A DNA stretch of 64,000 nt, taken from the IMG/VR virus record IMGVR_UViG_3300033144_003384, positions 1 through 64,000 of that record. One strand, given 5' to 3'. The stretch is from a virus. Position 1 is the first letter of the stretch; every line of letters begins with the position of its first letter. Below the pieces are notes generated by a model, which saw only the letters and a program-made list of their open reading frames with translations, did not search any database and was not told the origin of the DNA. Positions 20,606 through 28,773 of the stretch are shown here, in pieces. Both the position numbers and the translations under genes were made by a program.

Positions 20606-20651
20606 TCGTTTTGCTCTGACCCGTTTTGCTCCAGTTGGAGTGGGTACTGGC

Positions 20652-20731
20652 TGGTGGAGCTGGCGGGAATCGAACCCGCTTCCAGACATTTGCACTTCGG
20701 CATTTCAGTCTGTCGAAACCATTACAGCCCC
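20652..20731 (-). ncRNA. ssrA: Mini-tmRNA: tRNA-like domain only, 80 nt, no tag ORF
   Basis: GGGGCTG TAATGGTTTCGA CAGAC [20 nt] GTCTG GAA GCGGG TTCGATT CCCGC CAGCTCC ACCA; G3-U70 pair, tmRNA-type D-loop, P2a, T-arm and encoded CCA. Confidence 0.85.
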
Positions 20732-20732
20732 T

Positions 20733-20812
20733 TGGTGCCAACCTGCGGAATTGAACCGCAGCCCCTTTCCCGATATCACTCGGGGGTTACCTTGGGTGTT
20801 TATCCCGTTGGC
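20733..20812 (-). ncRNA. Atypical tRNA-like RNA (acceptor stem, T-arm and ACCA; no canonical anticodon arm)
   Basis: GCCAAC...CTGCGG TTCAATT CCGCAG GTTGGC ACCA; internal CCCGA-GTGATA-TCGGG has a 6-nt loop. Confidence 0.7.
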
Positions 20813-20813
20813 A

Positions 20814-20986
20814 TGGTAGTTGCTCGATCCCCCTCCGGAGAGTGGGGGCAGTAGGGAGGCTATCCGCGTCTTACCTTTTCAGCAGGGCTCGTATTAGGTT
20901 TCCCCGCGCAGTCCCCGTTGGGGGCGATGCGGGTTTCGCTGCCGGAGGTTCACTCCCGTCCCCACACTCAGGGTGGGGATCGAACT
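20814..20986 (-). ncRNA. ~173-nt rod-shaped structured RNA (6S/Ms1-like candidate) ending in ACCA
   Basis: Nested pairings GTTCGATCCCC/GGGGATCGAGC, GAGTG-GGGG/CCCC-CACTC, GGGAG/CTCCC, GGCAG/CTGCT, CCCC/GGGG. Confidence 0.6.
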
Positions 20987-20990
20987 GTCA

Positions 20991-21051
20991 CTATTCAGTT
21001 GTCAAGGTGCTTTACTACCTATAGTGTCTCACATAACCACCCTCTTGTCAA
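20991..21051 (-). promoter_or_regulatory. Promoter plus rrn-type boxA-like antitermination sequence
   Basis: TTGACA-17-GACACT, then GCACCTTGACAACTGAATAG resembling Gram-positive rRNA-operon boxA. Confidence 0.6.
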
Positions 21052-21119
21052 GGGTTATCTCGGATTGTTTTATCTAATAAGCACTTGACACACTATGCTC
21101 AGTAGTATACAATGGATGT

Positions 21120-27951: not shown

Positions 27952-28773
27952 ATGAAGTACAGAAAGAAGGGAGACAGAATGACCTACAAGATCGCAAGCA
28001 TCCTCATCATCGGAATGCGAATCGCATCCGTCACCGCACTCACGGTCGGCATGTACTTCGCAGGACAGGCAGGCTGAAACGAAGACTTCTCGTACAAGAG
28101 ATGGGTTGAACAAACAAAGCTGAAGGGGCCTTCGGGCCCCTCTTCTTTTTGGCCGCCGGGGCTCCAGGGGTTGACAACCAGCTTGTCCAGTGATATGTTG
28201 ACGACATGGAGAACAAACTCGAACGCACCCCCGACGGGTACTTCCTCATCTGGGACGGAAGAAAAGACGGCCACGATCGGGCCAACCAAAACGCTGCCCT
28301 CGTCCTCAACTGCAATCGGGACAACGGAGTCATCCCCTCGGACTACGAACTCCGCCAATATGACTCTCGCCTCGAAATCCGCACCCAATCTGAAGCCACA
28401 ATGGCCGCCATCATCCGGCTACTACTCAAGAAGCCCCGTGATCGGGGTGTTGCGTCAGCCACTGGCCAAGAACCGCAGCAGACCGCATGAACACTTCCTC
28501 CACCGCAGCAGCCCACGCTGCACGCACTGGCCGATTCATCTCAATGCTCGGCATCTCTGCGTAAGGGATCGCCACGATGACACGGCTTGGGTCTGCGGTC
28601 GTGATGATCTCGAACTCGGCTATGCCCGGAGAGGGAACAAGTATCCCGTAAACGTCGATTTGGTTTGCGAGTCCGGCGGGAGCTTGCACTACTCCGAGCA
28701 CATCTTCCCCGTCAATGTGTTCCATTGGTTCTACCATCGGCATGATCTTAGTACCGGGGCTCCTGGGGGCGGA

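What the first reader, a model, noticed from the sequence alone, without database searches (positions are those of the whole stretch)
20652..20731. Phage-encoded mini-tmRNA consisting only of the tRNA-like domain
Seen: the minus strand reads GGGGCTG-TAATGGTTTCGA-CAGAC-(20 nt capped by a TGC/GCA hairpin)-GTCTG-GAA-GCGGG-TTCGATT-CCCGC-CAGCTCC-ACCA. Established: this is the ssrA 5' and 3' architecture, with a G3-U70 alanine identity pair, stemless D-loop ending UCGA, P2a, a 3-nt connector bound by SmpB and a T-arm. Normal tmRNA has several hundred nt of pseudoknots and tag ORF between the P2 strands. Tag-less tmRNAs are known from some protist mitochondria, and full-length ones from some phages. 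Here P2 is neatly closed and CCA is encoded, so it looks maintained rather than decayed. Inference: an alanylatable SmpB/EF-Tu decoy that blocks host trans-translation, a tag-free ribosome-rescue RNA, or a decoy for tRNA/tmRNA-cleaving defence nucleases. I know of no described phage TLD-only tmRNA.
Basis: partly seen in the sequence, partly recalled or inferred. Interest (0 to 1): 0.92.

Follow-up and report, generated by a model that had tools for sequence, protein, structure and literature searches.

The report
Phage mini-tmRNA lacking the tag part
This uncultured phage carries a real 80-base gene for only the alanine-accepting, tRNA-like end of the bacterial ribosome-rescue RNA (tmRNA); one such RNA was already described in mycobacteriophage DS6A, so this is a new member of a known but little-studied kind that probably interferes with the host's rescue-and-tagging system.

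Summary
Window 20652-20731 (-) matches Rfam tmRNA end to end at 71.9 bits (cut-off 47), with 312 model positions replaced by 18 nt. ARAGORN finds nothing there.

It is not a one-off. 91 distinct copies aligned to a covariance model are 98.5% paired. 13 of 18 pairs change on both sides.

The novelty claim fails. A "TLD only" tmRNA of mycobacteriophage DS6A is in print (PMC4131195; PMC11915505), said there to inhibit tmRNA in E. coli. The DS6A element matches my family model at 57.3 bits. Earlier notes of this scan report the same kind on other DNA.

Most likely mechanism, inferred: host AlaRS charges it, host SmpB binds it, and it competes with host tmRNA.

Local context: it is the last of three abutting ACCA-ended RNAs (a 173-nt rod, an 80-nt non-decoding tRNA mimic, the mini), followed by a terminator. 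No relatives of the first two were found.

The host is unknown. The "actinobacterium" assumption is not shown.

Verdict: real, a new member of a known kind, moderate interest.

The parts
20652..20731 (-). Mini-tmRNA gene (TLD only), 80 nt. Acceptor 5' strand 20731-20725. Stemless D-loop with UUCGA 20724-20713. P2 5' strand 20712-20708. 20-nt loop with a 3-bp inner hairpin 20707-20688. P2 3' strand 20687-20683. Connector GAA 20682-20680. T arm 20679-20663. Acceptor 3' strand 20662-20656. Encoded ACCA 20655-20652.
   Evidence: Rfam RF00023 71.9 bits over model 1-374; fold; R1 87.4 bits; family covariation
20733..20812 (-). Second ACCA-ended RNA, 80 nt, a non-canonical tRNA mimic. It has a 6-bp acceptor GCCAAC/GUUGGC, a 6-bp T arm with loop UUCAAUU, a 3-bp D-like hairpin and an anticodon-like arm with a 6-nt loop GUGAUA. 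One nucleotide separates it from the mini-tmRNA.
   Evidence: Sequence. Fold z -2.90, 1 of 200 shuffles as good. Not called by ARAGORN. No Rfam tRNA match at E<=5 in a 328-nt search. R1 16.7 bits, E 0.085. One of only 2 GGTTCRANYCC motifs in the window. No relatives found.
20814..20986 (-). First RNA of the unit, a 173-nt rod-like structured RNA closed by an 11-bp terminal helix. It ends in AACUACCA, 1 nt before the tRNA mimic. Unclassified.
   Evidence: Fold z -3.66, 0 of 200 shuffles as good; same helix in the 466-nt fold. No Rfam match at E<=5. No phage match.
20572..20606 (-). Intrinsic-terminator-like hairpin (GGGUCGCC-UUAGCG-GGCGGCCU) followed by UUCUUUUGU, 45 nt after the mini-tmRNA. 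Between them lie a 5-bp hairpin and two copies of AGCAAAACG.
   Evidence: Sequence. Weak ctRNA_p42d-type hairpin-plus-U-run match, 24.6 bits. Same hairpin in the fold. The simple terminator scan did not list it.
21023..21051 (-). Candidate promoter of the RNA unit: TTGACA (21051-21046), 17 nt, GACACT (21028-21023). It faces away from a plus-strand TTGACA-17-TACAAT at 21085-21113.
   Evidence: Read from the sequence. The minus-strand site is below the threshold of the scan, which lists only the plus-strand one. Inference only.

Best explanation
It is a functional phage gene for a tag-less mini-tmRNA of the same kind as the 'TLD only' tmRNA of mycobacteriophage DS6A. It appears to be transcribed as the last RNA of a small non-coding unit. 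RNase P and 3' trimming would release it; the CCA end is encoded. Inferred steps follow. Host alanyl-tRNA synthetase charges it through G3-U70 and A73. Host SmpB binds the elbow, that is the D-loop GG..UUCGAC and the GGA(A/C) connector. EF-Tu can carry it. Because it has no resume codon, tag frame or stop codon, it cannot complete trans-translation. Its net effect is then to compete with host tmRNA for SmpB, and perhaps for stalled ribosomes. That would suppress ssrA tagging and tmRNA-dependent rescue during infection. Shown here: the anatomy, family membership and purifying selection on the helices. Not shown here: charging, SmpB binding, inhibition and expression.
For: Rfam tmRNA matches both ends in one hit of 71.9 bits, cut-off 47. 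That gave 91 distinct sequences, and 117 of 120 loci (window copy included) have 7 of 7 acceptor pairs. On 91 aligned copies 98.5% of cells pair, 13 of 18 pairs change on both sides, and the covariation score is 0.719 against at most 0.098 for slid partners; 0 of 500 shuffles reach it. All 6 P2 pairs covary. G12 of the D-loop and the connector G49 G50 A51 C52 were not fixed by the search pattern, yet they are 90-100% conserved in 63 aligned copies. A relaxed scan that left the acceptor free returned 120 stretches: 22 already held and 98 new. The only clean new mini (L293) again has G3-U70 and A73, and no TLD-like element has another 3:70 pair. The DS6A element (JN698994 28478-28560) fits the same model at 57.3 bits, E 4.5e-13. 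Published statements on DS6A-type molecules say that such a molecule inhibits tmRNA, perhaps by titrating SmpB (PMC4131195 passages; PMC11915505 passages). No conserved protein neighbour exists across the family: the largest ORF cluster occurs in 11 of 88 loci. The 83.7-kb record has no SmpB gene. Both fit reliance on host factors.
Against: No experiment or RNA read bears on this copy. The experimental basis (Mao et al. 2009) was not readable here, and I rely on two citing papers. The two citing papers differ on what was tested: the 2014 paper says 'a similar molecule' inhibited tmRNA, the 2025 paper reads as if the DS6A form itself was expressed. Two of 49 mini-carrying phage records also hold a full-length tmRNA of 376 and 392 nt. 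That is odd if the mini only blocks trans-translation, unless the two are timed differently. Five of the 18 pairs are invariant only because the search pattern fixed them. The alignment was fitted to the model, which favours pairing. Fold energy of this copy is unremarkable, z -1.52. The record is only 56% complete by CheckV, so absence of SmpB or other partners is weak evidence.
Confidence: 0.55

Rival explanations
1. Tag-free ribosome rescue. The alanyl-mini-tmRNA with SmpB enters stalled ribosomes and accepts the nascent chain. The peptide is then released by another factor (ArfB-type, or drop-off plus peptidyl-tRNA hydrolase). Ribosomes are freed without proteolysis tagging, as is supposed for the tag-less mitochondrial tmRNAs.
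For: Strict retention of G3-U70, A73 and an encoded CCA suggests that charging matters, not only SmpB binding. CDS-less tmRNAs in jakobid and oomycete mitochondria and in two plastids are judged functional from conservation and co-occurrence with SmpB (PMC11915505 passages). Mini and full-length tmRNA co-occur in 2 of 49 phage records, which fits complementary rather than antagonistic roles.
Against: There is no resume codon or stop codon, so no known route to termination. The record has no RF-1/ArfB-type gene or peptidyl-tRNA hydrolase gene, though it is 56% complete. [quoted passage not shown]
Confidence: 0.2
2. Decoy or sponge for host RNA-targeting proteins other than SmpB. Candidates are nucleases that cut tRNA or tmRNA during defence, or RNase R, which tmRNA-SmpB normally recruits.
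For: It sits beside another non-decoding tRNA mimic and a rod RNA in one unit, which looks like a set of mimics. tRNA and tmRNA fragments bound to the anti-CRISPR AcrIIIA1 bind RNase R (PMC11662646 passages).
Against: The conserved positions are the tmRNA-specific SmpB and AlaRS elements, not a nuclease target loop. The P2 loop, the most exposed part, varies from 2 to 33 nt across the family. No defence or anti-defence gene is linked to it across loci.
Confidence: 0.13
3. Non-functional remnant: a decayed phage tmRNA, an attP-type fragment of host ssrA, or an assembly artefact.
For: Phages often carry ssrA 3' fragments as attachment sites (PMC9004378 and PMC10865867 passages). This copy has no close relatives with which to test its own conservation.
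Against: Both halves of the TLD are present and P2 is closed. attP fragments hold only the 3' part. The record has no integrase. Family covariation is strong. A second assembly has the same junction. It has its own terminator and encoded CCA, whereas only 2 of 15 tRNAs in the same record's tRNA array encode CCA.
Confidence: 0.05

Closest known systems
'TLD only' (CDS-less) tmRNA of Mycobacterium phage DS6A (tmRNA Website tmID 11587; Hudson, Lau and Williams 2014; Mao et al. 2009 as cited)
   Same: Phage-encoded, about 80 nt (DS6A 83 nt). G3-U70 acceptor, stemless D-loop, closed P2 with a short loop, T arm, no pseudoknots and no tag frame. It matches my family model at 57.3 bits. It lies between small early genes next to replication genes, as this one does.
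   Different: DS6A ends CACUA, so CCA is not encoded. It has GUCGAC rather than UUCGAC and scores below the Rfam cut-off (43.2 against 47), while this copy scores 71.9. DS6A stands alone; this copy is the third RNA of a three-RNA unit. The DS6A host is known and this one is not.
Standard one-piece bacterial and phage tmRNA (Rfam RF00023; for example mycobacteriophage PegLeg, 403 nt)
   Same: Identical TLD architecture and near-identical 3' 31 nt.
   Different: It lacks helix 2b-d, all four pseudoknots, the resume codon, the tag reading frame and the stop codon: 312 model positions are replaced by 18 nt.
Tag-less organellar tmRNAs (jakobid and oomycete mitochondria, Rfam RF02544; about 65-bp plastid forms in Mallomonadaceae)
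   Same: tmRNA reduced to the tRNA-like domain with no tag frame, and thought to act with SmpB (PMC11915505 passages).
   Different: Those are the cell's only tmRNA and evolved by reduction in organelles. This one is an extra copy brought by a virus into a cell that has its own full tmRNA.
Permuted two-piece tmRNAs of phages (Melnitz-like marine phages; Stenotrophomonas and Xanthomonas phages Ps15, JGB6, Rb1)
   Same: Phage-borne tmRNA derivatives whose 3' TLD halves give the BLAST hits to this element.
   Different: They keep the tag frame and are circularly permuted: RF04321 scores 103-119 bits. They are not minis; R1 scores at most 32.8 bits on them.

Membership tests
tmRNA (Rfam RF00023, full trans-translation RNA) | tRNA-like domain: 7-bp acceptor with G3-U70, A73-CCA, stemless D-loop with GG..UUCGAC, T arm | tested here: met
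   (71.9 bits, both ends in one hit)
tmRNA (Rfam RF00023, full trans-translation RNA) | mRNA-like domain: resume codon, tag reading frame ending in a stop codon | tested here: not met
   Only 20 nt lie between the P2 strands. ARAGORN tmRNA search finds nothing at default thresholds. At 50% thresholds it finds only a spurious call on the opposite strand with 'Tag not identified'.
tmRNA (Rfam RF00023, full trans-translation RNA) | Long helix 2 and pseudoknots PK1-PK4 | tested here: not met
   312 model positions are absent.
TLD-only (CDS-less) phage tmRNA, DS6A type | Complete TLD closed by a short P2 hairpin, total length about 60-90 nt, phage-encoded | tested here: met
   The same covariance model matches DS6A at 57.3 bits and this copy at 87.4 bits.
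TLD-only (CDS-less) phage tmRNA, DS6A type | Helices kept by compensatory change across members | tested here: met
   13 of 18 pairs with changes on both sides, 98.5% of cells paired. The alignment was fitted to the model and 5 pairs were fixed by the search pattern.
TLD-only (CDS-less) phage tmRNA, DS6A type | Binds SmpB and inhibits host trans-translation | not testable with these tools
   Known only from citing papers. Mao et al. 2009 is not held.
TLD-only (CDS-less) phage tmRNA, DS6A type | Chargeable with alanine | not testable with these tools
   The identity elements G3-U70 and A73 are present. Charging itself was not tested.
Mitochondrial tmRNA (Rfam RF02544) | Best match to the mt-tmRNA model | tested here: inconclusive
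   cmscan keeps only the best hit of a clan, and RF00023 won. The RF02544 score was not shown.
Canonical tRNA-Ala | D stem and a 7-nt anticodon loop with a GCN-reading anticodon | tested here: not met

The most novel reading that the evidence does not exclude
The mini-tmRNA is one arm of a dedicated phage non-coding RNA unit. Three abutting, ACCA-ended, RNase P-type substrates (a 173-nt rod RNA, a non-decoding tRNA mimic and the TLD-only tmRNA) would be made together. Together they would occupy host tRNA-handling and ribosome-rescue factors (AlaRS, EF-Tu, SmpB, perhaps RNase R or tRNA-directed defence nucleases). That would be an RNA-only translation-takeover or counter-defence module with no described counterpart. 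Alternatively, the mini performs tag-free rescue rather than inhibition.
Probability: 0.15. Interest if true: 0.75.

Novelty: new member of a known kind. Interest (0 to 1): 0.4.

Why it matters
Trans-translation is the main ribosome-rescue path of bacteria and a drug target. A natural, virus-made RNA that carries only the SmpB- and AlaRS-binding half of tmRNA is a ready-made probe and a possible inhibitor of that path.

The literature I could search names a single phage example, DS6A. Searches found no paper on a wider family. Here one capped scan gave at least 119 viral contigs with such genes. 47 of the 49 minis that I checked already score above the Rfam tmRNA cut-off. Many database 'tmRNA' calls in phages may therefore be tag-less minis that ARAGORN cannot see.

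For this window the added point is its setting: a three-RNA unit with two unclassified partners.

Tried and rejected
Expression. The look-up of sequencing runs listed no RNA holder. The one DNA holder gave a single 243-nt contig. Nothing can be said about transcription or RNA ends.

Close relatives of this phage.
- The 352-aa neighbour protein gave no relative in viral contigs.
- Helicase relatives are at most 54% identical over part of the protein and about 50% over its full length.
- I searched 50 of those 80 loci, mostly the longer ones. 49 were held. None had a tmRNA over the cut-off.
- The 11 records with weak matches hold ordinary tRNAs: 26 tRNA genes and 0 tmRNA genes in 12 loci.
- So relatives show neither a mini nor a full ssrA at this place. 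Conservation of this very copy could not be tested.
- Two metagenome pattern scans for near relatives of the mini and of the mimic-mini junction found 0 stretches.

Host.
- BLAST hits of the 3' half to Stenotrophomonas, Xanthomonas and Mycobacterium phages are to the conserved 3' end of permuted or full-length tmRNAs. They give no host clue.
- The genome-contig scan gave 51 stretches, 23 of them with 7 of 7 acceptor pairs, in diverse phyla. The nearest is 79% identical to this copy.

Partner genes in the record. No SmpB, RF-1/ArfB, peptidyl-tRNA hydrolase, integrase or CCA-adding enzyme was found. The record is 56% complete.

Neighbouring ORFs. 10 candidate ORFs beside the RNA unit have no PHROG match. 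GC by codon position did not settle which are genes. 10 representatives of ORF clusters that recur near minis gave only SSB, DnaB-type helicase and unknown families.

tRNA directly before a mini. Of 100 places (99 loci plus the window) with a CCA-ended T arm followed within 8 nt by GGGG..TTCGAC, 95 have no mini closure. Most of those are permuted two-piece tmRNAs; ARAGORN calls a tmRNA at 68 of them. Only 5 are minis, 3 of them behind a canonical tRNA. None resembles the mimic at 20733-20812.

Other checks.
- (ACCA-N-G) showed the motif is common by chance, 165 found against 142 expected. The ACCA end of the 173-nt RNA is therefore not significant on its own.
- A resemblance of the P2-loop consensus (UAAaaCc.AAaggga) to the start of helix 2b in the Rfam consensus (GAacacccc..agggCA) is only an impression, and I make no claim from it.

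Rows dropped.
- Alignment A1 used 63 of 91 distinct sequences. I left out 28: most copies under 74 nt, four of 88-90 nt (L018, L093, L094, L104), the three with imperfect acceptors, and a few of 72-75 nt (for example L004, L026, L047, L095).
- A3 used 17 sequences with the same D-loop length.
- A2 contained two mis-set starts and was not used.
- A5 holds 91 matches from 92 sources; L041, at 39.9 bits, fell below the E limit.

Supplementary files of papers were closed. Table S1 of PMC9004378, which lists phage tmRNAs, may include minis.

Full report
WHAT IS THERE

The window is the first 64 kb of an 83,756-bp IMG/VR virus record, linear, with CheckV completeness 56%. On the minus strand, 20731 to 20652 reads as follows:
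- GGGGCUG, the acceptor 5' strand
- UAAUGGUUUCGA, a stemless D-loop
- CAGAC, then a 20-nt loop, then GUCUG: this is P2
- GAA, the connector
- GCGGG-UUCGAUU-CCCGC, the T arm
- CAGCUCC, the acceptor 3' strand
- ACCA

The minimum-free-energy fold has these helices plus a 3-bp hairpin inside the loop.

Rfam cmscan of the whole window gives one match above a gathering score. It is RF00023 tmRNA at 20652-20731, at 71.9 bits against a cut-off of 47, E 5.3e-26. It covers model positions 1-374, with 312 positions replaced by 18 nt. ARAGORN calls no tRNA or tmRNA in the window and none in the RNA unit at default thresholds.

The fold energy is not unusual: z -1.52, and 13 of 200 shuffles fold as well.

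A 243-nt contig of an independent Logan assembly of a public DNA run covers 20677-20919 without a difference. It crosses the short P2 loop. The run may be the source sample, so this argues only against a scaffolding error.

IT BELONGS TO A LARGE PHAGE FAMILY

The motif was GGGG, 8-14 nt, TTCGA, 20-50 nt, GGTTCRANTCC, 7 nt, TCCACCA. With the window copy this gives 120 loci and 91 distinct sequences of 63-90 nt. 117 of the 120 have 7 of 7 acceptor pairs.

I built a covariance model (R1) from 17 copies with the same D-loop length (A3). I then realigned 91 matches from 92 sources (A5). On A5:
- 98.5% of 1631 cells form standard pairs, against 69.9% in shuffles and 48-56% with slid partners.
- 13 of 18 pairs show changes on both sides.
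- The covariation score is 0.719 against at most 0.098 for slid partners.
- All six P2 pairs and three of five T-stem pairs covary.

Two caveats apply. The five invariant pairs were fixed by my pattern, and the alignment was fitted to the model.

Several positions that the pattern did not fix are conserved anyway (63 copies). G12 in the D-loop and G49, G50 and C52 of the GGAC connector are at 90% or more, and A51 is invariant. These are the tmRNA-specific elbow elements, not general tRNA features.

A relaxed scan left the acceptor free: TTCGAC, 20-50 nt, GGTTCRANTCC, 11 nt, CCA. It returned 120 stretches, 22 already held and 98 new. Among the 98 new ones only one (L293) is a clean mini, and it has G3-U70 and A73. 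The rest are ordinary tRNAs or 3' ends of tmRNAs. No TLD-like element with another 3:70 pair turned up.

The P2 loop comes in two size classes. 69 of 91 copies have 14 nt or more, with a mode of 18-19 nt; 48 of those 69 form an inner hairpin of at least 3 bp. 22 of 91 have 2-12 nt. This copy, with 18 nt by the model's borders, is in the main class.

In 185,579 species genomes the same motif gives only 51 stretches. 23 of them have 7 of 7 acceptor pairs, in Nostoc, Christensenella and other lineages. The element is thus mainly viral or prophage-borne.

WHAT IS ALREADY KNOWN

There is one.

Hudson, Lau and Williams 2014 (PMC4131195, passages seen) list 'Mycobacterium phage DS6A (TLD only)'. [quoted passage not shown] 2009.

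The 2025 tmRNA database paper (PMC11915505, passages seen) repeats this. It sets DS6A beside the tag-less mitochondrial tmRNAs and two plastid forms of about 65 bp. Mao et al. 2009 is not held, so I did not see the experiment.

I fetched DS6A. An 83-nt element at 28478-28560, unannotated and lying between gp33 and the DNA polymerase III gene, matches R1 at 57.3 bits. It matches Rfam tmRNA at 43.2 bits, just under the cut-off. This window's RNA and DS6A's are therefore the same kind.

Searches found no paper that describes the wider family. PMC9004378 (passages) counts tmRNAs in 402 of 18,146 phage genomes by ARAGORN, which cannot see minis.

Earlier notes of this scan report the same kind many times on other DNA, with the same DS6A comparison. 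I tested that reading here rather than adopting it.

CONTEXT IN THIS PHAGE

The mini is the last of three abutting RNAs on the minus strand:
- 20986-20814: a 173-nt rod closed by an 11-bp helix and ending AACUACCA. Fold z -3.66, and 0 of 200 shuffles are as good.
- One nucleotide.
- 20812-20733: an 80-nt tRNA mimic. It has a 6-bp acceptor, a 6-bp T arm with loop UUCAAUU, a 3-bp D-like hairpin, a 6-nt 'anticodon' loop and ACCA. Fold z -2.90.
- One nucleotide.
- 20731-20652: the mini.

After the mini come a small hairpin, two copies of AGCAAAACG, and a terminator-like hairpin with a U run at 20606-20572.

A TTGACA-17-GACACT lies upstream at 21051-21023. It is too weak for the promoter scan. That scan does list a divergent plus-strand TTGACA-17-TACAAT at 21085-21113.

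The tRNA mimic is not a tRNA by ARAGORN or by Rfam at E<=5. The two T-loop motifs of this unit are the only GGTTCRANYCC matches in the window. By chance 0.78 are expected, and 18 of 100 shuffles have two.

I confirm the layout and the fold statistics. I found no relatives of the first two RNAs, so whether they are genes remains open.

The record also has a separate array of 14-15 ordinary tRNAs at 80.6-83.7 kb. Only 2 of those 15 encode CCA, whereas all three RNAs of the unit end in ACCA.

The record has no SmpB, RF-1/ArfB-type, peptidyl-tRNA hydrolase, integrase or CCA-adding gene, with the completeness caveat.

The surrounding genes are small and unknown. A helicase, a primase and an exonuclease lie nearby. 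The unit thus sits in an early or replication region, as in DS6A and in some other mini loci next to SSB and DnaB genes.

Across 88 mini loci no protein family is a regular neighbour; the largest cluster occurs in 11 of 88.

HOW IT MOST LIKELY WORKS

Shown: a complete, selected tmRNA tRNA-like domain with alanine identity and the SmpB-side motifs, no message part, and no phage partner gene.

Inferred from established knowledge of tmRNA: RNase P and exonucleases mature it, AlaRS charges it through G3-U70, SmpB binds the elbow, and EF-Tu can deliver it.

Without a resume codon and a stop codon it cannot finish trans-translation. The simplest outcome is competition with host tmRNA for SmpB and possibly for stalled ribosomes. 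That is what the citing papers say was seen in E. coli. I put this at about 0.55.

The main rival is tag-free rescue, at 0.2. It would explain why alanine identity and CCA are kept so strictly. It would also explain why 2 of 49 mini-carrying records hold a full-length tmRNA as well.

A decoy role for other RNA-binding proteins (0.13) fits the company of a second mimic. It does not fit which positions are conserved.

Remnant or artefact (0.05) and decoding tRNA-Ala (0.02) are contradicted by the anatomy and the covariation.

HOST AND RELATIVES

The host is unknown. GC is about 55%. The helicase's best isolate match is 31.9% identity, to Arthrobacter phages. The 3' half of the mini matches the conserved end of many bacterial and phage tmRNAs, which tells nothing.

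Helicase relatives in IMG/VR, about 50% identical at best over the full length, carry neither a mini nor a full tmRNA in the 49 records searched.

VERDICT

It is a new member of a known kind (DS6A type). That kind is much more common in phages than the literature I could search says. 47 of the 49 minis that I checked already score above the Rfam tmRNA cut-off, so it is easy to mistake for a full tmRNA.

The three-RNA unit is the only feature particular to this window, and it is unsupported by comparison. Interest 0.4.

Noticed in passing
window 20733-20812 (-): An 80-nt ACCA-ended tRNA mimic sits directly (1 nt) upstream of the mini-tmRNA. It has canonical T-loop and acceptor/T stacking, but a 3-bp D-like hairpin without GG and a 6-nt 'anticodon' loop GUGAUA. 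It is invisible to ARAGORN and Rfam tRNA. No relatives were found.
   Followed up: partly
window 20814-20986 (-): A 173-nt rod-like structured RNA (fold z -3.66) heads the same unit. It ends in AACUACCA, 1 nt before the tRNA mimic. It has no Rfam match and no match in phage isolates.
   Followed up: partly
window 20607-20651 (-): Between the mini-tmRNA and the terminator lie a 5-bp hairpin (CCAGU..ACUGG) and two direct copies of AGCAAAACG. Their meaning is unknown.
   Followed up: no
L466 16637-19717 (record 80.6-83.7 kb, +): An array of 14 ARAGORN tRNAs plus one Rfam-only tRNA lies 60 kb from the RNA unit. Only 2 of the 15 encode CCA.
   Followed up: partly
L213 (record of L145, G015:C1:36222-36299, -): A helicase relative carries a 78-nt non-canonical tRNA-like element just upstream of a tRNA-Met(CAT). 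It has acceptor GCCCCUG/CAGGGGC, T-loop UUCAAUU and loop CUUAUAA. ARAGORN does not call it.
   Followed up: no
records of L004 (G052) and L009 (G056): Two phage records hold both a mini-tmRNA and a full-length tmRNA (376 nt at 128 bits, 392 nt at 94 bits) tens of kb apart. This bears on whether minis antagonise or complement tmRNA.
   Followed up: no
L315 571-637 (Stenotrophomonas phage Ps15) and L314 545-919 (phage Marzo): The same permuted two-piece tmRNA (RF04321 119 bits on Ps15; the Marzo locus itself was not scanned with Rfam) is annotated as 'tRNA-Undet pseudo' in one isolate and as a 375-nt tmRNA overlapping two tRNAs in another. This shows inconsistent annotation of phage tmRNA forms.
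   Followed up: partly
L247, L307, L309 (viral contigs): Three contigs share a 96-nt element that starts GCCGGGG and has a TTTCGAC motif near the 5' end, a CCCAUAA loop and an ACCA end. It has 6 of 7 acceptor pairs and C3-G70, and it is neither a mini-tmRNA nor an obvious tRNA.
   Followed up: no
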